Shown here: piece by piece, positions 41,471 through 62,229 of the stretch | Position numbering within the stretch: position 1 is the stretch's first letter | Layout: each line of letters opens with the position of its first letter | Origin: the human T2T-CHM13v2.0 reference genome, Homo sapiens | Direction: 5' to 3' (one strand) | NCBI RefSeq assembly: GCF_009914755.1 | Contig: NC_060938.1 | DNA length: 64,000 nucleotides | Position numbers and translations under genes: made by a program | The notes under the pieces: generated by a model | Database searches by the model: none | The model's input: only the letters and a program-made list of their open reading frames with translations | Told to the model about the DNA's origin: nothing

Positions 41471-43714
41471 TCAGCCCCATTTAATTCTCACAGAAACCCT
41501 ATGACATAGACACGCGCATCAACCCAACTCCACCAATGAGGACTCTGGGGCACACAGAGGTTAAACAACTTGTCCAGCACCACACAGGCAGTGAGAGAGG
41601 AATGACGATTTCATCCCAAGCCCATCTGTCTCCAAAGCCTCTCTTTTGAGAACTCTCAATACCCCTACTCTAGAAAATCTGTCCAGAATCCCGACGGAAG
41701 TGCATAGGAGTGATCACTGGGCAGACAGGGACACATGCCTAGCCTCTTTGCAGTTACTGGAAAAAGTTAATCATAAGCTGAACTAATGCAGTGCCTGTTT
41801 TGTGGGACAAAGATCTCAATTGTAATGACAACTGATTTACCCCACATGTACTTTGTCTCAGAATCAGCCTCAAAGCCTTCAGGCCTCATCTGGACATTTG
41901 AGGCCCTTACCTGAAGCCAGTGATGAGCTATATTGTTGGATGAAAATTGCTTTTTGTGCCTTGAAGTCTGGCAGCTTGTTCATTCATTTATTCATTAACT
42001 AATTGTACAGAATAGTGGGCTACCCTTCCAGGTATTCTATCGGTATAAGAAAGCAACTCACAGGTCCTGTCTCTCTCATTTACAGACCTAGAATATTGCC
42101 TCTGGTTCCCTTGCTATTGGGCATGAGTGCCTCCTTCCCTCCCTCTCAGAAGAAGGCATGAATTTGCTGTAGGGTGGTGAAAAAATATTAACTAATCTAG
42201 GCATCAGAAACTGGGTGGAAGTCCTGCTTCTGCTCCTAAAAGCTCTGTGACCTCGAACAAATCATTTATCTCATCTGATCACAATTTTCCCACCTTTAAA
42301 ATAAGAATATTGATAATGAATTTATTGTGAGGGGTCTATAAGACCATGTGTATGACAACACTAGGGATTTTGAAAATTTTCAACAGTAGAACAGGTTATT
42401 ATTTTTTATGTCCCCCAAACACTTACTGTGTACTTATTAAATGTCAGTATCTGTGTTGGCACTGAAAATACAAAGATTAGACATGATCCCTGATCTTAAT
42501 GAGCTTGTAGTCTAGTAAGGGAGATTAGTGTTTAGATAAGAACATTGTGATGTAGTAAGATGGATAATTGTAGAATTATGTGCAATGAAATAGAGGCAGT
42601 ACTCAAAGCGACTTGAGTAGGACAGTTTAAGCTACATAGAGCAGAGACATGAACTTAGCTTCTAACTACCATTACAAGTCATAGAAACACCCAGAAGCAT
42701 GGTGTGTTTGGGAATTAAGATCACTGAGGTGGGGCAGGATGTGAGGTAAGTATCCCTATGTCACAGAGGACCAAGGCTCCAGACTTGTTCTACTTTTGCT
42801 GTACCATGATTAGATACCGTTGTAATGCTCACCCATGCTATTTCCTTTCTACCCAGAACTGTAGAAAGTAATTGTTTTGTGCCAGTTTAGAATGCACTTG
42901 GAGGATGAAAAACATCATTCTCCACTTAATTGGCTTTTGTTGCTATTTTTGCATTATGGTTGCAGGACCAGCTCTGAGAATTTTAGAGCCACCTCAACAG
43001 GGTGTTCCATCTTGTTCTTTTTGATAGGTCTCCTTTCCTTTTGGCAGGCTGTTAATTTCCTCTCAATATATAATTTGGCCTCTGCATTGTTGCTCTTTTG
43101 ATGGCCTATTTAGGCCCCCAGAACTAGAATACACTTGGCCAAATGCATTATAAACAAAGGAGATTTTACCTCTGTAGTTCTTTAGGAAACAGGTAGAATT
43201 TCCATTCCTTCTATGAAGTTGATGCCTGGAGCACTGAGTGAATTAACTTGTCTTTTTGCCTTATTGAATTGATCAGAATATTTGGCATCTTTCATCTTCA
43301 ACCCTTGTCGTCATTATTGCCTTGTGACTTTTGTGAAGAATGTGGTTTCTATCACATAATTCTATAAATTCAATCAAACCATGACTCAGAAAGTGTTGAT
43401 ATCTTCTGAATGACATTTTCAACAAATGCCCCAAACAGTATGGATTGAACAGCATCATCCATTGAACTAATGAAAGCTGGAGCCTGTATTATCCTCAGTC
43501 CACTGCCTTAAACCTCAGGGAACAATTAAATACCTGTGTATTGGAGGCAATGAAAAGAGAAAGTGAGTATCATAAGTCTGTGGGCCCTTTTGATTTGGTT
43601 TGACTGCGACGTGATTTCACAGCCTACATCACAGCCACAGGCCCTTCTTATAAATAACTTTTTCAGTCTGAATTTGAAAATGTGCAGGTAGTTTTTAGAA
43701 AGTCTGGTCTGGAT

Positions 43715-45069: not shown

Positions 45070-45763
45070 GCCATGATAATGTGGCTTAGATTCCTCCTTT
45101 CTAAACCTAGCTATTTTAGGTTCTTCAGATATAGGACATGTTAGGGTAATTTATCAAGGAAATAGAAGTTCTGAACTAACCAAAGTTTCACTATAAGAGG
45201 AAAGGATTTATGAATTGGATGACTCATATTCTCCTATGAAGATTTAAATAAAAATGTTTTCTTTATAGGTATCAGGTTTTAAAGATAGTTTCTAAAATGA
45301 TTTAAATGAAGCTGTTTTTAGAAAGTAAGTTTTGTTTATTTTTTAAACATTTGACTTCCATTCAATACTATTGGTAAAATTCCCACAGTGGCAAGAAAGT
45401 CAGGCACAGCCCTCCAAAGTAGTGAAGGGTACTTAACAACCCATTTATTTGGAAGTATTTTTGGTATTTTGTATAGAATAAAATCAGGAAGCTCAGCAGC
45501 TACCTCTGGAGAATGCAGTTTGATTCAGTCAAAGCATCAGTGTGTGGAACTGGGTAAGGAGAGAATTTCACACACATCACACACACTCATATACACATAT
45601 TAATACATATACACACATGCACAAATATACACTTACACATACACACAGACTTACATACTCACAAATAGACACACACATACACACACCAGCATTTATGTAT
45701 CCTAGGGTAAAGACTTTTTACCAGAGACAAAGCTACTAACTTCCATGGTAGAAGAATATATAA

Positions 45764-46050
45764 GGCTGGGTGCCATGGCTCATGCCTGTAATCCGAGCAC
45801 TTTGGGAGGCCAAGGTGGGAGAATTGCTTGAGTTCTGGAGTTAGAGACCAGCCTGGACAATATAGGGAGACCCTATCTCTACAAAAAATTTTTAAAAATT
45901 AGCCAAGTGTGGTGGCACCACCTGTAGTTCCAGTTACTTGAGAAACTGAGATTGGAGAATTGCTTGAGTCCAGGAGGTACAGGTAAGACCGTGTTGGCTG
46001 TGATTGTGCCACTGCAATCCAGCCTGGCCAACAGAGCAAGACTCTCTCTC
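45764..46050 (+). mobile_element. AluJ lacking an A tail (replaced by (CT)n then a TA-rich tract)
   Basis: Alu dimer ending acagagcaagactctctctc. Confidence 0.88.
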
Positions 46051-46089
46051 TCTCTCTTTTTCTCTCATTGTGGAATGATTATTAAATGA

Positions 46090-47020
46090 TGATTACTCTA
46101 TATAGTACTATATATATATAGTCATATATATATATTCATATATATATAGTCATATATATAGTCATATATATATATACACACACACACACATATATATAAA
46201 GTCAGAAAACTCCACAGACATTAGACCTCATAAGGCAAGTCACTCTGTGCTTACACATCCCAAATGTTTTGTTCTTCGGAGCCTTTTTAAGAATGGAAGG
46301 AAAATAAAAAATGCAAGAACTTTTTATGATTATTTATTGTGCCACTGCTAATTTGAAGCCTGCCACTCATAACAAGGGGAATGATGATTACTATATATAT
46401 AGAAATATATAGTAATATATTCTATATATATGAAATATATAGTAATATATTCTATATATATGAAATATATAGAATATATTCTATATATAGTAATCTTATT
46501 CTATATATAGTAATATATAATAAGATTACTATATATAGAAATATACAGTAATATTTTTATATATATTTTAATATCTAGTAATATATATTACTATATATGT
46601 TATATGTAAAACAATATATACTATATATAGACATAGTAACATATATTACTATATATACTATATATAGACATGTCTATATATAGTATATATTGTTTTATAT
46701 ATACTATATTATGTATGCTATATAATATAATAAAATATATAATATGCTATAATATATAACATTATATAATATATATCTCAAAGGATGGTTAAGCTTTCAA
46801 AAGGCAGGGATAAAATAAGGGGCAATTTAGGAAAATAGGAATATATAGTATATTATGTATAAACAATATATACGATATATTATCGTATATATTATGTACG
46901 ATATATTATCGTATATATTAAATACTATATATTATTGTATATAATATATACTATATATAAATGTATATGATGATATCTATATTACTATATATTTCTATGT
47001 ATATAGTACTATATGTATAG
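46090..47020. repeat. ~0.9-kb interrupted (TA)n-rich tract containing captured sequence
   Basis: Read directly; non-AT inserts at 46202-46390 and 46777-46841. Confidence 0.92.
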
Positions 47021-47208
47021 TAATCATCATTCCCCATGTTATGAGTGGCAGGCTTCAAATTAGCAGCGGTACAATAAATGATCATAAAAGGCTCTTGCAT
47101 TTTTTATTTTCTTCCATTCTTAAAAAGGCTCCAAAGAACAAAACATTTGGCATGTGTAAACACACAGTGACTTGCCTTATGAGGTCTAATGTCTGTGGAG
47201 TTCTCTGA
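46202..47208. repeat. Long inverted repeat: arms about 46202-46394 and 47017-47208
   Basis: Left arm tcagaaaactccacagacattagacctc...ggggaatgatgattactata is the reverse complement of the right arm; about 12 differences in ~193 bp by hand alignment. Confidence 0.97.
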
Positions 47209-48064
47209 TTACCATCAAGAAAAGCAGAAGGAAAAACATTGGTTCAGGATCATTTCTACTTATCCTTTTCTTTCCAGGTAAAAGAAATCTTTACCTGGGT
47301 CTAGACCAGCAAAAGCTCTTTGAAGCAGGAGATACACATCACTGGGTACGGCTGGTTCTCAAACATGCACTTGATTTTATTCACAAGTCTTACAAATCAT
47401 CACATGCCCAAAGAAACACCTAGGTGAACTAAAGTTCTGATTTTATACACTCACTGCCACCTGTCACTCACAGCCTGCAAGTCTCTGTGCCAATGTCAGA
47501 AGCTGGAAATATATTATGATGGTTAAGATCAGTGCTCCTTATCAGTCATTTTCTAGTGGATTGTAAGTTGCTCATGTGGCAAAGTTAACCTCTTAGGAAG
47601 AAGGGGTAGATGGAGAACAATAGAAGAGGTGGAACTAAGTTCTGGGGTACTCCAGCATCAAGAGATTGAGGAGAGGGAACTGGGATCAGTTGGATGTCAG
47701 GAAAGCAAAGCAAGAGTGTCATCATGGGAACCAAGAGAAGAGAGAGTGATCAGCTCTATGAAATGACACCCCCATTTTTACATCCCCCAATTCCCCATTT
47801 ATCTTTCTCAGCTGCAAACATGGATGATTTTCTTCTATGCCGTGAGGTCACTGAACGTATAAGTAGAAATTCCTAGCTCTCAGAACCATTTGGGACTTTT
47901 GCAACCTATACAAAACTTCAGTATCCTCCTTTTTTTCCTATTTTATATTTTCTCTTTTGAATTTAATCCTCATGCGATTAGAGTACGCTAAAAGGGACCA
48001 AGCTTAGATTAGCAGAAGAATTTTACTAAAGGTTCAAGTATGCGTTTGGCAATGAAATTCCATC

Positions 48065-48520
48065 CAGTATGTATTTACTAAATGCTTACTAAGTATAAGA
48101 TGCTATTCTCAATGCTGTAGAAAAAAAATTAAAATTCTATGTTCACTGAAGTCAACATCTCAAATGTTGGCAATGTAGGAATGAAATTATCTTAAAAGAG
48201 ATAATGCATAATTTGCTGTGGAAGTACAAAGGAGGAAGAGATCACATTCAGCGGGAGGGATTATAAAAAACCTGGAGGAGGATTTAGTGTGTGGGTGGAC
48301 CTCAAAGGGTTGTTAAGCTTTCAAAAGGCAGGGATAAAATAAGGGGCAATTTAGGAAAATAGGAACAACATGAGCAAAGGCACAGAGATGGGAAACTATA
48401 GCTTGTTTTTGGAGAAATGGTCATAGTTAAATTTAGCTGAAGCATAAAGATATGTATGTAAAAAAGAAGTGAGTAAGACTGAAGAAGTGATGGCATATGT
48501 CAGAGAGTCCTGGGTAGAGA
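48065..48520 (-). mobile_element. L2 fragment
   Basis: tatttactaaatgcttactaag...ggaacaacatgagcaaaggcacagagatggga. Confidence 0.6.
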
Positions 48521-49049: not shown

Positions 49050-49330
49050 AGCATCCCTCGGGGGTGGGCAGCATTTGGGGAAGCTGGCGTATGCGGCACG
49101 AGAGTGCAAGGAAGGAAGAGCTGCAACCACGTGGCTGAGCTCAGCCCTGGGAGATGGGGCCGTCCTTCCTCTGGGAGCCACGGAAATTTCTACCTGGGTC
49201 TAGGCGGGCAGAGGCTCTGCAGCAGCGGACACGCATGACTGGGTAGAGCCAGTCTTCAACAGTGCCACCGTGTGGCAGAGAGGAGCAGTGACAGTTATAA
49301 CTCCGTAGAATTATATGCGGGTTCTCCCAG
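49050..49330. promoter_or_regulatory. CpG-retaining candidate cis-regulatory element with a CTCF-like site
   Basis: 13 CpGs in 49059-49319 outside any recognised young repeat; CCACGTGG at 49127-49134; CAGTGCCACCGTGTGGCAG at 49260-49278. Confidence 0.55.
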
Positions 49331-50763
49331 CCCAGCCTTGAAAACTAAGCAGCTCTCTCTTCCTGGAGTGTGAGGGCTTCAGCATCCAGGGACAAAGCCC
49401 AGTGTGTACATGGAGAAGGCTTAAAGAAGCCGATACCGTGCCTCTTGATAATAGGGAATATGAAAACTTGATAAATTAATTGAAAAGTGAAGAGAAGTGG
49501 CGAATTCAAATTTGTACGGCAGTTCTAAGTGATAATTAGAATAAAATCATTAGACAAAAAGGAAAAATATATCTAGTTCTAAAGCGTTAGCTTTTATCTT
49601 GCTAGAAAACTCAGCTGTCTAGAAACTCACATTCCTAAGCGTCTGGATTGAGATTTTCTTTTGGTTTTCATTCATCAGGGAATGAAGTGAAAGGATTGAA
49701 TTTTCACGTTACACTTAACTCAGGCTTGATAAGAGTCTGGAGGAGACAGTCTCTAATAATCCTATAATCCTAGATGTCCTGTCTATACCTTTTAACATCT
49801 CTGCATTTACTCCTTGAGTTTCTTGTGGTTGAGGAAGGATTTTGAAAGGGAGATGATGAGAAAAACATCACTCATATTAGTTACTGACTGAATTACATCC
49901 ATTTCTGGTCAGTCGTCATTAGGTAAAGCTCTAAATTTCAATCAGGATCTTGGCTAATTGTACTTTGGATTTGATAAGGAGTCATTGAAAAGTGAGCAAT
50001 GAATAAGATTAAAGCTAGGCATTTCTTCTTTTTAAACTAATGTATCATTCATTATTGGTTTAGTGCTCATCAGGTTTTGGTAAATAAATAAAAATCTTAG
50101 ATTTGGAAAGTTCTACAGTGGTCATTTAGTTCAACCTTTTATTCCCAGGCAGGAGACCTTTTCTGCAAAATACCTGACTTTTTGTGACAGAAGATCAATC
50201 AATTCAGGATCTGCTAAAACACACCTAGGGATGTAAAACTCACCACTTTGTGAAGCAGAACATTCACCTAATATTCAGAGTGTAGCCTGGGGGTAGCAAC
50301 GGGGCATCCCTGGAGAGTTAGTAGGAAATGCTCGATCTGAGTCCCTATCCCAGACTTGCTGAATCTGAATCTTCCCTTGACAGGATTCCTGGGTACTGGG
50401 TACTCATATATACGTAATGTTTGAAAAGCACTGGCTAATTCTATCGTTAGATGGTTTCAAATGTTAAATGGTTTCAAACTGACATCTTACTAAAACCTAA
50501 TGTTCTGGTGTGGTCTATGAACCCATCCCCACAGCCTCGGCTGTTAGCCCAGCTTCTGGCCATTCCTGCAGTTATAAAGCTTTGGCCACCACTGCCATTG
50601 TGGCCACCTCATCTCCTTACACTCAGTAGTTTCTGACTTTCCTGGGTGTGACGGCTGGGCTTTGGCACAGCCTTGGTCACATTTTCTGTGGTAGGAGCTG
50701 TGGCAACTCCAGGGCTTGGGCCAGATCAGATCCTGCTGCACCACTGAGGCTCTGGTTCTCTCA

Positions 50764-57347: not shown

Positions 57348-57638
57348 GGCTAGGTGCTGTGGCTCACACTTGTAATCCCAGCACTTTAGGAGGCTGAAGC
57401 AAGAGGATGGCTTGAGCTCAGGAGTTCAAGACTAGCATAGGCAACATAGAGAGACCTCATATCTACTAAAAAAAATTTTTTTAAATTAGCCAGGCATAAT
57501 GGTGCACACTTGTAGTCCCAGCTACTTGGGAGGCTAATGTAGGAGGATCACTTGAGCCCAGGAGATAGAGGCTGTAGTAAGCTTTGATCTTGCCATTGCA
57601 CTTTAGCCTGAGTGACACAGCGAGACCCTGTCTCCAAA
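57348..57638 (+). mobile_element. AluJ inside an L2 fragment (about 57040-57870)
   Basis: Alu dimer; TSD aaaaagtttctt; L2 end tgaatgaatgaa near 57860. Confidence 0.88.
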
Positions 57639-57943
57639 TTTTTTTAAAAAGTTTCTTATTATATTTTAAAACTATGTATTTATCTTTCTATTTATTCATA
57701 TAATGTATATCTCACCTCATAGACTCAAGTTGTTGTGAAGACAGGTGCCTTTTTTCTCCTCAATAACTATTGTATTCCCATGCTTGCCTGAGTACCTGCC
57801 TGAAATATTGCATGGTCTTTAAAACTATTTATTGATTCACCTACTGACTGACTGACTGAATGAATGAACATTATTGGCATTTAAATTAAGCAGAGTAGTT
57901 TTGTTAGAATAAAAAAATAATGCTAAAATAAATGCAGACATTA

Positions 57944-58348
<405 letters not shown>

Positions 58349-58375
58349 TTACAAAATATTGTGCATTGTTTTATC

Positions 58376-58681
58376 TTTTTTTTTGTTTTGTTTTGTTTTT
58401 TGAGACAGGTCTCACTCTGTTGCCTAGTCTGAAGTGCAGTGGCATGATCACAGCTTACTGTAACCTCCACCTCCTGGGCTCAAGTGATCCTCCCACCTCA
58501 GCCTACTGAGTAGCTGGGACTACAAGTGTGTGCTACCATGCCTGGCTAATTTTTGTATTTTTTGTAGGAATGGGGTTTCACTATGTTGGCCAGACTGGTC
58601 TCGAACTCCTGACCTCAAGAGATGCACCTGTCTTTGCCTCTCAAAATGCTAAGATTATAGGCTTGTGCTACATGCCTGGCC
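58376..58681 (-). mobile_element. AluJ
   Basis: Antisense Alu dimer (ctcctgggctcaagtgatcctccc). Confidence 0.9.
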
Positions 58682-58718
58682 TGGTGTTTTAATATTGTAT
58701 ATTAAAAAGAAAAATATT

Positions 58719-59002
58719 GGATACAAAGAATTCAAAATTTCATTTAGGTAGGAGGAATAAGTTCAGGGGATCTATTGTACAACATGATGAATATAGATAA
58801 TAATATGTTGTGTACTTATTAAAATTGCTGAAAATTACCTAGAGTAGATTTTAGATTTCTCATCACATATACAAAAGAAAAGTGTGTAAGGAGATAGATC
58901 TGTTAATTAGCTTGATTTAGCCATTCTACAATGTGTGCATATATCGAAACATCATGTTGCACACCATAAATATATACAATTTTGAAAATTAAAAATAAAA
59001 AT
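58719..59002 (+). mobile_element. L1MA 3' end
   Basis: ggaggaataagttcaggggatctattgtacaac...gttaattagcttgatttagccattc...catcatgttgcacaccataaatatatacaa. Confidence 0.85.
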
Positions 59003-59604
59003 ATTGGTCTACATGTATATGCCAAAATGTAAACAACAGTTCTTTGGGTGGCAGATTTTAAGTGGTTTCTATTTGTTTTATTTATTTGTGTTTTTTTCAT
59101 ATAATTGCTTTGTTTTAAAGTTATAGAAGCCATTGATTCCTTAAGTAATCTATTAATTCATTCAACAACTATTTGTTATCTACTTTGTGTCAAGCATTGT
59201 TCCAGAAACTGGATTTATGTGCTGATTATAAAATTCAAGTGCAAATCCTTTTGTGTACACCTTCTTTTTAACATTTCTTTCTCGTTAACCACTTTAACAG
59301 TGTAGATGGATCCTTCTAAATGTTTTCTTTGTTCCTTTGATAGGATTTATATACATTTTGTTCTACGCAGTTATAGATTTTTGAACATAATATGATCATA
59401 CTATGCCTATCGTTCTGTGACTTCCTTTTTAGCAACTTAATATATCCAGGAAAAATTTTCATGCCACCACATTTAAAGGTATCTCATTAAGAAGGAAAAA
59501 AGCTGCATGTTTCCATAATTATTTCATCAATTCTCTTATTCATGAGCACTTTGGTTGTTTAAAATTTATTCTCTAAGTTACATGCACACACACCCAACAA
59601 TATG

Positions 59605-59764
59605 TTATTTTGTTATTTGGGTTTTTTTGTTTGTTTATTTGTTTTGTAGAGATGGAGTTTCACCATGTTGGTCAGATTGGTCTTGAACTCCTGCCTTCGA
59701 GCTATCTGCCTGTCTTGGCTTCCCAAAGTACTGGGACTACAGGTGTGAGCCATCATGCCCAGCC
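59605..59764 (-). mobile_element. Alu left-arm monomer (FLAM-like)
   Basis: gtagagatggagtttcaccatgttgg...caggtgtgagccatcatgcccagcc only. Confidence 0.8.
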
Positions 59765-59945
59765 CCCAACAATATATTATTTGTTTAATTAAAAGTAAGG
59801 TTAAAAAAAAGACAAGGAGCACTTAGCCATTCATGACACAAGGCAAATGTTATGCCAAAATGGCTTGTACGCTGGAAAAAAATTACAATTAATGTCCGTG
59901 GACTAGACTTGAAAAGGTGAGTGTTGTGACCACTTTTCAACTTGA

Positions 59946-60271
<326 letters not shown>

Positions 60272-60809
60272 TGTGTCTAGAAATTCTTAAATTGGGTCAA
60301 TCTGAACATAAGGCCAAGCACGTCAGTGGTAGGCAATATTTTATGAGCAGATTAAATTATTCACATTTTGACGCCATTGTAATGATTTTTAGGTAGATGA
60401 AAAGTGTTTAATTTTAGTCTTTTCCCAAAGGAAGAATACTTTCCTTCAATGAGTTACTGTATATTGGTGATGCTTGCTGGGAATCAAAATGTGGTGAGAA
60501 AAGAAATTTCTCAGAAAAAAAAAATCTCAGAATCTTTTATACTGTAACAGAGGAAGGATGAAAGGGAAGGCCAAACTTGAATTACTTATGCAGATTTTAT
60601 TTGGAAGTGATACCTACTTTATATGTTTGAAAAATGCTCATGCTTCTAATATTAATACCTATTGGATCAATAGATATGTTACAGCATGTTAAATTATATA
60701 TAAAATAAACAAGATAGTGTTAGTGCTTGCCTTCTACAGGCTTAGAGTCTATAATTCCAAAGGTTATCTATGAATTTCAGATCTGAAAATTAGAGATTCA
60801 CCTATGCCT

Positions 60810-61730
60810 TTTTTTTTTCTTTTACTTATTCTTAAGATTTTAAAGTAAAATTTACATAAAGTGGAATGCACCTATTAAGAATGCAGATTGGCTGGACGCA
60901 GTGGCGGATACCTGTAATCCCAGCACTTTGGGAGGCTGAGGTGGGAGGTTTGCTTGAGCCCAGGTGTTCGAGACTAGCCTATGCAACATAGGCAGATCCC
61001 ATCTCCACAAACAATAAAAGAATTAGCTGGGTTTGGTGGTGCGCATCTGTGGTCCCAGCTACTGGGAAGGCTGAGGTGAGAGGATCACTTGAACCCTGGA
61101 GGTTGAGGCTGCAGTGAGCAGTGATTGTGCCATTGCACTCCAGCCTGAGTGACAGAGTGAGACTTCATCTAAACAACAACAACAACAACAACGAAAAAAA
61201 ACAAGTGCATATCGATGAGCTTTGACAAATATATGAGGCTCTTTCATCCTTATCTCAACTGGGATATATTTCTATCACCCCAAAACTTCCCTCCTGCCCC
61301 TTTCCAGTCAACATTCTTCTTGTGCCCTAAGTCAATCATTCTTCTGCTTTCCCTCATCATAGATTACTTTTTACCTGTTCTTGGACTTCATATAAACAAA
61401 ATTACATAAGTTCTTTTGTATCTTTTCTTTTATTCAACATAATGTCCCTAAAATTTATTCACATTGTTCTGTGTATCAGAAGTTCATTCCTTTTTATTGA
61501 TGGAGTGCTATTTCATTATATGGTTATATTTCAGTTTGCTTATTCATTATCCTATTGATGGACGTTTGGGTTGTTTCAGATTTTGGCTATTATGAATAAG
61601 GCTGCTTTGAACATTTTATACAAGTCTTTTTGTAAATACATGTTTTTGTTTCTCTTGGGTAAGTACCTAGGATTGGATTGCTGGGTCAAAGAACAGGAGC
61701 CTGTTTAACTTCAGAAGACACTGGCAGCTT
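60810..61730 (-). mobile_element. Old L1M (L1MB/MC-type) 3' end, split by an Alu
   Basis: gtaaaatttacataaagtggaatgcac...gagctttgacaaatat...ttgatggacgtttgggttgtttcag...ggattgctgggtcaaa. Confidence 0.75.
60889..61200 (+). mobile_element. AluJ
   Basis: Alu dimer with gaggctgcagtgagc and an (AAC)n tail. Confidence 0.9.
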
Positions 61731-62229
61731 TCATTTCTTCTTTGGTGTAACGTGATATTCATTTTTTAGTTCTTCTGAAGTACTTGAGGGTCCTCAGAGG
61801 AATGAATCTATTAAAGCAAGAATGATTATTAATTAAAGTTTGTGACAAATAAAGTATGCAATTTTTGTGTCAGGAATTTCACCTCTGCAAAGAGTTGTCT
61901 CAATTACCTAAAATCAAACTTAATTACCTAAAATCAAACTTAATAATTACCATGGCGTTCCAAAAGCCTTAAAGGTCAATGTACTTCATATAAAATCTTG
62001 AATAATCTTTTAAAAAGAAAATTGTATTAGTCAGGATCCAGCCAGGAAAAAAAGTTATTTTAACAAGAGAAAATTTAACATAAATAATTGTTAACTAGTT
62101 ATACAATTATTAGCTAGGTAACTGAAAAGGAAAGAGAGAATAGCAAAGTGTAATATAAGTAGCAATTACAGAAGCATCTACCTTTCCCTCAGGGTGGAGG
62201 AAAAGGGGAAGAGATTGAAATTCTTAAAA

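What the first reader, a model, noticed from the sequence alone, without database searches (positions are those of the whole stretch)
46202..47208. ~190-bp inverted copy of the downstream flank embedded in a (TA)n tract, giving a PATRR-like quasi-palindrome
Seen: 46202-46394 is the reverse complement of 47017-47208 (about 12 differences, ~94%). I do not recognise the arm as a known repeat, and the ~620-bp spacer is almost pure A/T. The left arm has TA-rich sequence on both sides, while the right arm continues into unique DNA. Established: long (TA)n and palindromic AT-rich repeats extrude hairpins or cruciforms, stall forks and break; fold-back or template-switch repair (TMEJ/MMBIR-type) makes inverted templated insertions. 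Inference: the right arm is ancestral and the left arm is a repair scar in a tract that grew from the tail of the AluJ at 45764. The result could be a fragile, rearrangement-prone site and, if transcribed, a long non-Alu dsRNA stem. The ~6% arm divergence suggests an old event predating the human-ape splits.
Basis: partly seen in the sequence, partly recalled or inferred. Interest (0 to 1): 0.8.

Follow-up and report, generated by a model that had tools for sequence, protein, structure and literature searches.

The report
Old AT-rich palindrome, inverted flank copy
About one kilobase of human chromosome 14 is an old, worn-down palindrome: some 190 bases beside a TA-rich repeat were copied backwards onto the repeat's other side, a clean example of a known kind of rearrangement with no sign of a function.

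Summary
46202-46394 is the reverse complement of 47017-47208, with 11 substitutions and one 1-base gap in 193 columns.

- **Not a transposon.** Both arms occur nowhere else in the 3.1-Gb assembly. No target-site duplication flanks them.
- **Homology enters the TA-rich DNA.** It runs about 30 bases past the arms.
- **The whole stretch reads as one palindrome.** BLAST returns 46202-47208 as a single palindromic match.
- **A second copied piece.** The "almost pure A/T" spacer holds a 65-base direct copy (46777-46841) of 48301-48365.
- **A symmetric centre.** With those 65 bases removed, a perfect 40-base palindrome (46651-46690) lies 2.5 bases from the spacer's midpoint.
- **A third partial copy.** A short copy of the arm/TA junction lies at 46074-46178.

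Best reading (0.6): one long template switch or fold-back in a TA-rich tract, roughly 12-60 million years ago, made a palindrome with an AT-rich centre and non-AT ends. Repeat turnover and further templated insertions then eroded it.

It meets two of the three published PATRR features but fails the defining one, a near-perfect palindrome. Which arm is older, its age and any present-day instability could not be tested, because no primate or pangenome data were available. It is a new member of a known kind, of modest interest.

The parts
45764..46052 (+). Old Alu element upstream of the structure. The subfamily was not tested here.
   Evidence: Two sub-threshold SRP-RNA hits at 45765-45881 and 45907-46052. 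70-75% identity to other Alus in the window. 58 nhmmer hits in 264 kb.
46042..46066 (.). (CT)12 run at the Alu 3' end. No A-rich tail is left.
   Evidence: TRF; sequence.
46074..46178 (+). Third, partial copy of the arm/TA-rich junction. It has the same orientation as the inner end of the left arm. It consists of AATGATGATTACT, preceded by an 11-bp tandem duplicate, plus about 80 nt of TA-rich DNA.
   Evidence: Local alignments to rc(46900-47080) (score 88) and to 46330-46500 (score 78). BLAST gives 76% over 104 columns and 78% over 91 columns. The 13-mer is exact in all three copies.
46071..46200 (.). AT-rich region flanking the palindrome on one side only. It includes a 14-bp unit x5.4 and (AC)7.5 at 46176-46190.
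   Evidence: TA-density scan; TRF.
46202..46394 (-). Left arm, an inverted copy of the right arm. GC is about 35%.
   Evidence: GC.
46391..46489 (.). 30-bp unit x3.3 at 97% match, a recent tandem expansion inside the spacer.
   Evidence: TRF; 41-nt exact direct repeat at offset 30.
46395..46776 (.). TA-rich spacer, left and central part. GC is 11-16%.
46581..46723 (.). Inner inverted repeat with 68-nt arms, 78% complementary, 7-nt loop, centre 46652. A 28-nt stretch is exact.
   Evidence: the repeat finder I3; exact matches.
46651..46690 (.). Perfect 40-nt palindrome, centre 46670.5. It lies 2.5 nt from the midpoint of the spacer once the 65-nt insert is removed.
   Evidence: A palindrome of 40 nt or more appeared in 4 of 1000 dinucleotide shuffles.
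46777..46841 (+). 65-nt direct copy of 48301-48365 (63 of 65 identical) inside the TA-rich spacer, read as a second templated insertion.
   Evidence: the repeat finder D6; BLAST. In the genome only these two places match. nhmmer E 3e-11.
46842..47016 (.). TA-rich spacer, right part, with a 26-bp unit x5.4 (82% match).
   Evidence: TRF.
47017..47208 (+). Right arm. It continues without a break into single-copy DNA and is inferred to be the ancestral copy.
   Evidence: In one search the 684-nt query 47017-47700 matched only itself and the left arm.
48301..48365 (+). Presumed source of the 65-nt insert, embedded in non-repetitive DNA.

Best explanation
The 1,007 bases at 46202-47208 are the eroded remains of one palindrome of about 940 bp. 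This is an inverted duplication, not a mobile element.

Inferred history:
1. A TA-rich tract lay just left of the single-copy sequence now at 47017 onward.
2. During replication or break repair, a 3' end stalled or broken inside the tract switched to the opposite strand about 190 bases beyond the tract's right edge.
3. It copied back through that flank and into the TA-rich DNA, then returned to the original template near its turning point. In the four-point template-switch notation this is type 1-4-3-2 or 1-3-4-2, but about 470 nt long instead of tens of nt.
4. The product was a palindrome with an AT-rich centre, non-AT-rich ends, and the unused part of the old tract left as an AT-rich flank outside the new left arm.
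5. The unique arms then drifted apart by 6%. The centre was scrambled much faster by slippage and unit duplication.
6. The same tract took up at least one more templated piece (65 nt from 1.5 kb downstream) and carries a third short copy of the arm junction.

Today the outer arms can pair only when the DNA is single-stranded or in the LINC02286 intron RNA. In duplex DNA only short central hairpins, such as the 40-nt perfect palindrome, are likely to form.

No function is indicated. The likely present behaviour is length variation of the TA-rich units, not chromosome breakage.

Shown here: the repeat anatomy, its uniqueness in the genome and its folding potential. Inferred: the mechanism, the polarity, the order of events and the age.
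For: - Arms: 11 mismatches and 1 gap in 193 columns.
- Both the arm and its terminal 26-mer (up to 3 mismatches allowed) match only the two arms in 3.1 Gb, with 0 control matches.
- nhmmer over 264 kb gave 2 of 2 hits as the arms, while an Alu control gave 58.
- Inverted homology continues into the TA-rich DNA: a 21-nt exact inverted match 46399-46419 / 46978-46998 beyond a 14-bp indel.
- BLAST returns 46202-47208 as one self-complementary match, 75.07% over 1047 columns, E 8e-173.
- Removing the 65-nt insert raises the half-against-half global alignment score from 394 to 466.
- The two spacer halves align better inverted (score 142) than direct (111), reversed (88), or in any of 200 dinucleotide shuffles (103.8 +/- 12.7, maximum 140, z 3.0).
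- The longest perfect palindrome (40 nt; reached in 4 of 1000 shuffles) lies 2.5 nt from the spacer midpoint. The 68-nt inner repeat is centred 21 nt from it.
- TA-rich DNA lies outside the left arm only.
- Two extra templated copies sit in the same tract.
- Each arm has lost a different CpG, and transitions to transversions are 8:3. That indicates independent decay after a real duplication.
- The four-point model describes inverted-repeat-creating switches of this topology (PMC5453318, passages).
Against: - No outgroup or population sequence could be examined. The ancestral single-arm state, the polarity and the date are therefore untested.
- Away from its edges and centre, the symmetry of the spacer is weak. 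The z of 3 rests largely on about 50 nt.
- Recent unit expansions on both sides (30-bp x3.3 at 97%; 26-bp x5.4) mean the near-exact central position of the 40-nt palindrome may be partly luck. It was also noticed after the fact.
- No microhomology is visible at the novel junction 46201|46202 or at the ends of the 65-nt insert.
- The direction of the 65-nt copy (which site is the source) is not proven.
- Published template-switch events are tens of nt long, not hundreds (PMC5453318, passages).
- The small survey gives almost no base rate. There were 2 other TA-rich tracts in 200 kb and neither had a flank copy.
Confidence: 0.6

Rival explanations
1. Same inverted duplication, but with the opposite polarity or a more complex order of events. 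The left arm, or the short third junction copy next to the Alu, would be ancestral and the right arm the copy. Alternatively the structure was built in several steps from an earlier short inverted repeat that already bounded the TA tract.
For: The third junction copy (46074-46178) shows that the tract was already bounded by a short inverted repeat, or was hit repeatedly. The sequence just before the left arm (…ATATATAAAG) loosely resembles the sequence just before the Alu (…AATATATAAG). If that were a target-site duplication, the left arm would be contiguous with pre-Alu DNA.
Against: That resemblance is low-complexity TA sequence and needs an indel. The right arm runs straight into 490 nt of single-copy DNA. 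No TA-rich DNA lies outside the right arm.
Confidence: 0.13
2. Inversion of the TA-rich segment by staggered breaks or an inter-strand switch (four-point type 1-3-4-2). This would duplicate the 190-nt break region in inverted orientation at the two ends of an inverted spacer. The centre would then never have been palindromic.
For: The end product, inverted arms around a spacer, is the same. Symmetry of the spacer is weak apart from its edges and centre. PMC5453318 reports type 1-3-4-2 as 23% of its human-chimp events (passages).
Against: Inverted homology continues from both arms into the spacer. A perfect 40-nt palindrome sits at the midpoint.
Confidence: 0.12
3. The arms are the long terminal inverted repeats of a non-autonomous DNA transposon (MITE) with a TA-rich interior.
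For: Inverted termini exist, and the arm begins with …CAG, as many cut-and-paste elements do (this last point is recalled, not tested).
Against: - 2 of 2 genome matches are the arms themselves.
- The terminal 26-mer with up to 3 mismatches gave 2 hits and 0 in the control.
- The inner junction 20-mer with up to 2 mismatches gave 17 hits against 10 for the reversed control, near chance.
- No target-site duplication of 4 nt or more at matched boundary shifts.
- 6% arm divergence is low for transposons, which I recall being inactive in primates for about 40 My.
- The right arm is continuous with unique DNA.
Confidence: 0.03
4. Assembly artefact, a fold-back chimeric read built into the assembly.
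For: Palindromes are known to be hard to clone and sequence (PMC4940405, passages).
Against: A chimeric read would give identical arms. Here there are 12 differences with a natural transition bias and reciprocal CpG loss, and the two halves of the spacer have different repeat structures.
Confidence: 0.01

Closest known systems
Palindromic AT-rich repeats (PATRR11, 22, 17, 8) at recurrent translocation breakpoints
   Same: Several hundred bp long. AT-rich centre with relatively non-AT-rich ends, and another AT-rich region flanking the palindrome (features 2 and 3 in PMC4255720, passages). The flanking and central AT-rich DNA carries about 30-bp direct-repeat units, as described there for PATRR8. 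The sequence is chromosome-specific, with no family resemblance.
   Different: PATRRs are nearly perfect palindromes without a spacer (92.7-100% arm identity in the PATRR8 table; 'without spacer regions', PMC4940405). Here the whole structure is 75% self-complementary, only 40 nt at the centre are perfect, and 622 nt separate the well-matched arms. No translocation is known here.
Template-switch mutations (four-point model of Loytynoja and Goldman; Ripley-type quasipalindrome mutations)
   Same: A reverse-complement copy of nearby sequence is placed next to its source in one event, creating an inverted repeat or hairpin. The topology is 1-4-3-2 or 1-3-4-2 (PMC5453318, passages).
   Different: Scale. 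The described events copy about 10 to a few tens of nt, whereas this copy would be about 470 nt. The ancestral state is not available here.
Templated insertions of break repair (polymerase-theta end joining, MMBIR/FoSTeS); named from my own knowledge
   Same: Short stretches copied from within a few kb, in direct or inverted orientation, inserted at a break. The 65-nt direct copy and the short third junction copy fit this pattern.
   Different: No junction microhomology can be recognised now. The enzymes involved cannot be inferred from an old germline scar.
Inverted Alu pairs and other spaced, diverged inverted repeats
   Same: Arms of 200-300 bp, under 100% identity, spacers of 0.1-2 kb. They are able to anneal in long single-stranded DNA and to form intronic dsRNA (PMC10164571, passages).
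   Different: The arms are single-copy DNA, not a transposon. At 94% they are more alike than the 7 Alu pairs in this window (71-83%). The spacer is itself self-complementary.
Long AT-rich palindromes catalogued in the human genome
   Same: Long human palindromes are reported as highly AT-rich and mostly intronic or intergenic. About 180,000 exceed 40 bp and 718 exceed 200 bp (PMC7999016, section 4.1). The 40-nt core belongs to that class.
   Different: That catalogue counts only near-perfect, spacer-free palindromes, so the 1-kb structure as a whole would not be in it.

Membership tests
PATRR (palindromic AT-rich repeat) | Nearly perfect palindrome of several hundred bp with no spacer | tested here: not met
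   Whole structure 75.07% over 1047 columns. Arms are 94% identical but 622 nt apart. The perfect core is only 40 nt. Definition from PMC4255720 and PMC4940405.
PATRR (palindromic AT-rich repeat) | [quoted passage not shown] | tested here: met
   GC is 0.11-0.20 across 46400-46999 and 0.35-0.355 over both arms.
PATRR (palindromic AT-rich repeat) | Another AT-rich region flanking the palindrome | tested here: met
   TA-rich block 46071-46200 outside the left arm, none outside the right arm.
PATRR (palindromic AT-rich repeat) | Cruciform extrusion, or use as a constitutional translocation breakpoint | not testable with these tools
   Needs plasmid extrusion assays, sperm PCR or breakpoint data. 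Central asymmetry predicts poor extrusion (PMC1851657).
Cut-and-paste DNA transposon / MITE | Multiple copies of the element or its termini in the genome | tested here: not met
   Only the two arms match. The junction motif is near the chance level, 17 against 10 in the control.
Cut-and-paste DNA transposon / MITE | Target-site duplication directly outside both terminal repeats | tested here: not met
   No direct match of 4 nt or more at matched boundary shifts within +/-8 nt. The flanks are …ATATAAAG and TTACCATC….
Template-switch (four-point) inverted duplication | A fragment that is the reverse complement of adjacent sequence, contiguous with its source at the turning point | tested here: met
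   Arms plus about 30 nt of TA-rich DNA are inverted copies. Palindromic centre at the midpoint.
Template-switch (four-point) inverted duplication | A closely related sequence that shows the ancestral state without the copy | not testable with these tools
   No primate or other human genome is held. G000 'has no relatives here'.
   Here (CT)12, about 20 nt of other sequence and a copy of the arm junction lie between the Alu body and the TA-rich DNA. A nearby Alu-tail repeat is (AAATAT)n joined directly to the Alu.

The most novel reading that the evidence does not exclude
The locus is a 'fossil PATRR' that preserves how such palindromes are born. A single long template switch inside a TA-rich tract copies the unique flank backwards, which at one stroke gives the AT-rich centre, the non-AT-rich ends and the one-sided AT-rich flank that the translocation-prone PATRRs share. 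On this reading the one-sided flank is simply the unused remainder of the original tract. Three separate templated copies in one tract would mark degenerate TA-rich tracts as recurrent acceptors of templated DNA in the primate germline. I could not find this origin model in the held library. However, the two papers on PATRR17 evolution in primates and the 2012 PATRR review are not held, so it may already be in print.
Probability: 0.3. Interest if true: 0.55.

Novelty: new member of a known kind. Interest (0 to 1): 0.35.

Why it matters
If the reading holds, this is a datable, fully assembled example of how a unique-sequence inverted repeat and an AT-rich palindrome arise from a TA-rich repeat. 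It also gives a concrete explanation for the shared architecture of the disease-associated PATRRs. That explanation can be checked directly in the complete ape genomes.

In practice the locus is likely to be a length-variable, hard-to-sequence site in an intron of LINC02286. It could form a roughly 190-bp non-Alu RNA duplex there. No evidence links it to a phenotype or to chromosome breakage.

Tried and rejected
- **Transposon reading.** Rejected on copy number, termini and target-site duplication.
- **RNA families.** Nothing reached a gathering score. The only matches were Alu-like SRP hits and weak matches of TA-palindrome microRNA models (mir-4536, mir-1277, mir-3149) to the central palindrome, E 0.075-0.5.
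- **Coding potential.** Only two ORFs of 55-56 aa. Not pursued.
- **Base-rate survey of other TA-rich tracts.** 200 kb downstream held 2 tracts (180 and 100 bp), and 0 of 2 had an inverted flank copy. A wider sample through a (TA)20 pattern search found 21,185 matches per strand. I stopped the survey there, so how common such structures are remains open.
- **Literature on PATRR origin.** Inagaki 2005, Lewis 2005 and Kato 2012 are not held. The searches were too loose to be useful.
- **LINC02286.** One paper mentions it. By its title and the start of its abstract (an Alzheimer's disease rare-variant study) it is unrelated (search listing only).
- **Microhomology.** None is recognisable at the novel junctions.

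Full report
**1. The observation**

The sequence at 46202-46394 is the reverse complement of 47017-47208. The pairwise alignment shows 11 mismatches and one 1-base gap in 193 columns, 93.8%. The repeat finder reports the same pair as I1 and I2, and a search of the whole assembly gives 94% identity with E 1.5e-76.

Of the 11 substitutions, 8 are transitions and 3 are transversions. Each arm keeps one CpG that the other has lost: …TTCGGAG… on the left against …TTTGGAG…, and …ACCGCTG… on the right-arm complement against …GCCACTG…. That is the signature of two copies decaying independently. It is not what a fold-back read artefact would give, since that would produce identical arms.

As single-stranded DNA the 999-nt core folds at -299 kcal/mol against -83.2 +/- 4.4 for 20 dinucleotide shuffles, z -49. 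As minus-strand RNA it folds at -481 against -187.8 +/- 7.2, z -41.

**2. What the arms are not**

The assembly that holds the window (G000, 3.1 Gb, 24 contigs; the window is C14:19282001-19346000) was searched in four ways.
- The right arm as query returned 2 candidates and 2 matches, both of them the arms.
- A 684-nt query covering the arm plus its flank gave the same two matches.
- The outermost 26 nt, allowing 3 mismatches, gave one hit per strand, the two arms, and 0 for the reversed control.
- The inner 20-mer that spans the arm/TA boundary, allowing 2 mismatches, gave 17 hits against 10 for the control. Apart from the two local copies that is the chance level.

The tool warns that its DNA search scores only the best candidates. 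I therefore also ran nhmmer over 264 kb (the window plus 200 kb downstream). The arm found only itself and its partner, whereas an Alu query used as a positive control found 58 copies.

No target-site duplication of 4 nt or more is present at matched boundary shifts within +/-8 nt. The arms are therefore single-copy DNA, not the terminal repeats of a transposon family.

**3.

(a) *Homology continues into the TA-rich DNA.* After a 14-bp indel there is a 21-nt exact inverted match, 46399-46419 with 46978-46998. TA-rich sequence was therefore copied together with the flank.

(b) *One long palindromic match.* BLAST of the window against its own minus strand returns 46202-47208 as one self-complementary alignment, 75.07% identity over 1047 columns, E 8e-173. 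The 7 other spaced inverted pairs in the window outside this locus are all Alu pairs at 71-83%.

(c) *The spacer is neither pure A/T nor a (TA)n run.* The longest uninterrupted TA run is 13 nt. The tract consists of degenerate units of 12-37 bp, including a 30-bp unit x3.3 at 97% match and a 26-bp unit x5.4 at 82%.

(d) *A second templated piece.* Inside the spacer, 46777-46841 is a direct copy (63 of 65) of 48301-48365, which lies 1.5 kb downstream in ordinary single-copy DNA. These are the only two places in the genome that match.

(e) *A symmetric centre.*
- With those 65 nt set aside, the spacer is 557 nt long.
- Its longest perfect palindrome is 40 nt (46651-46690), centred 2.5 nt from the midpoint. 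A palindrome that long arose in 4 of 1000 dinucleotide shuffles.
- The strongest imperfect inner repeat (68-nt arms, 78%, 7-nt loop) is centred at 46652, 21 nt from the midpoint.
- Leaving out the 65 nt raises the global alignment score of the left half against the reverse complement of the right half from 394 to 466.
- The two spacer halves score 142 when aligned inverted. They score 111 direct and 88 reversed, and 200 shuffles gave 103.8 +/- 12.7 with a maximum of 140, z 3.0.

This symmetry signal is real but modest. It is carried mostly by the edges and the centre.

(f) *A third junction copy.* Between the Alu and the left arm, 46074-46178 is a third, partial copy of the arm/TA junction. 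It has the 13-mer AATGATGATTACT exact, about 80 nt of TA-rich DNA, and possibly about 15 more diverged arm bases upstream. Its orientation matches the inner end of the left arm.

(g) *Signs of recent activity.* A 21-mer occurs twice directly (46614 and 46651) and once inverted (46670-46690), all exact. Together with the 97% 30-bp array, this shows that the centre has kept rearranging long after the arms formed.

**4. Most likely history and mechanism**

The data fit one long template switch, or an equivalent fold-back repair event.
1. A 3' end inside an ancestral TA-rich tract moved to the opposite strand at what is now 47208.
2. It copied back through the unique flank and into the tract.
3. 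It returned to the original template near its turning point.

The product is a palindrome of about 940 bp with an AT-rich centre and non-AT ends (GC 0.11-0.20 against 0.35). The unused left part of the old tract remains as an AT-rich flank outside the new arm (46071-46200).

[quoted passage not shown] The difference is that those events are tens of nt long. The 65-nt direct copy and the third junction copy look like further templated insertions into the same tract.

What is shown is the anatomy and the uniqueness. The mechanism, the polarity and the order of events are inferred.

I hold this reading at 0.6. The rivals are:
- the same duplication with reversed or multi-step polarity (0.13);
- an inversion with a duplicated breakpoint (0.12);
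- a transposon (0.03);
- an assembly artefact (0.01).

**5. Age**

Jukes-Cantor distance between the arms is 0.0596. The substitution rates below are recalled, not taken from any call.

| Copy pair | Rate per site per year | Estimate | Poisson 95% range |
|---|---|---|---|
| Arms (11 differences in 192) | 1.0-1.2e-9 | 25-30 My | 12-51 My |
| Arms | 0.5e-9 | about 60 My | 29-103 My |
| 65-nt copy (2 differences in 65) | 1.0-1.2e-9 | 13-16 My | 2-56 My |

Gene conversion between the arms would make them look younger. "Older than the human-ape splits" is therefore plausible but untested.

**6. How it is likely to behave now**

Published work bears on this.
- Cruciform extrusion depends on central symmetry. 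A 9-bp central asymmetry stopped extrusion and instability of a PATRR22 construct (PMC1851657, passages).
- In yeast, lowering arm identity from 100% to 94% cut rearrangements about 15-fold, and widening the spacer from 12 to 200 bp cut them about 20-fold. Such repeats did still anneal in long single-stranded DNA (PMC10164571, passages).

With 622 nt between its well-matched arms, this locus should be far less breakage-prone than a true PATRR. In duplex DNA the plausible structures are short central hairpins. The arms could meet in resected or lagging-strand DNA, or in RNA.

By the hub's gene table the locus lies in the intron between LINC02286 exons 43170-43533 and 61667-61807 on the minus strand. 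A duplex of about 190 bp in the pre-RNA is therefore possible wherever that gene is transcribed. Editing and small-RNA data were not available. The near-identical 30-bp units predict length polymorphism.

**7. Comparison with known classes**

PMC4255720 (passages) lists three features shared by translocation-related PATRRs.
- A near-perfect palindrome of several hundred bp. Not met here.
- An AT-rich centre with non-AT-rich ends. Met.
- Another AT-rich region flanking the palindrome. Met.

The locus resembles a PATRR in layout but is not a member. It fits better as a large, old template-switch inverted duplication.

AT-rich palindromes and spaced inverted repeats are abundant and well described. 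One catalogue reports 718 near-perfect palindromes over 200 bp (PMC7999016, section 4.1). Another reports more than 600,000 inverted pairs of at least 200 bp and 80% identity in this same assembly (PMC11794170, passages). I therefore rate this a new member of a known kind.

**8.

Growth of the tract from the AluJ tail is not shown. The Alu (45764-46052) ends in a (CT)12 run with no A-rich tail, and the third junction copy separates it from the TA-rich DNA. A tail-derived repeat found 96 kb downstream is (AAATAT)n joined directly to the Alu end.

**9. Limits**

- No primate, pangenome, repeat-library or functional data were available, so polarity, age and instability rest on inference.
- My survey for similar structures covered only 200 kb (2 tracts, 0 with a flank copy).
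- The key papers on PATRR17 evolution in primates are not held. I cannot say whether the origin model in my most novel reading is already published.

Noticed in passing
window 47284-47348 and 49183-49245: A weak direct similarity, 76.9% over 65 columns and nhmmer E 4e-6 for 49176-49264. The second copy lies inside the RefSeq 'silencer' 49127-49421 of the hub table. It may be two fragments of an ancient interspersed repeat.
   Followed up: no
window 45569-45686: A degenerate (CA)n / ACACACAT microsatellite just upstream of the Alu. A short (AC)7.5 also sits at 46176-46190 between the flanking TA block and the left arm, where Rfam gives a sub-threshold mir-297-like hit on the minus strand (E 6e-4, 35.8 bits against a gathering score of 90).
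   Followed up: no
window 57348-61200: A cluster of Alu elements forms several inverted pairs. The best is 57990-58292 with 59969-60271, at 82.6% with a 1.7-kb spacer. They lie next to the annotated silencer 60211-60373 and the LINC02286 exon at 61667-61807. These are ordinary Alu inverted repeats and are more diverged than the arms studied here.
   Followed up: no
window 46649-46694: The central perfect palindrome gives weak, sub-threshold matches on both strands to microRNA families that are themselves TA-rich palindromes (mir-4536, mir-1277, mir-3149; E 0.075-0.5, 23-27 bits against gathering scores of 76-100). I take these as a composition effect.
   Followed up: partly
G000:C14:19378191-19378370 (L010): A 180-bp (AAATAT)n-type repeat attached directly to the 3' end of an Alu, with no inverted flank copy. 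It is a useful contrast for what an Alu-tail-derived AT-rich repeat looks like.
   Followed up: partly
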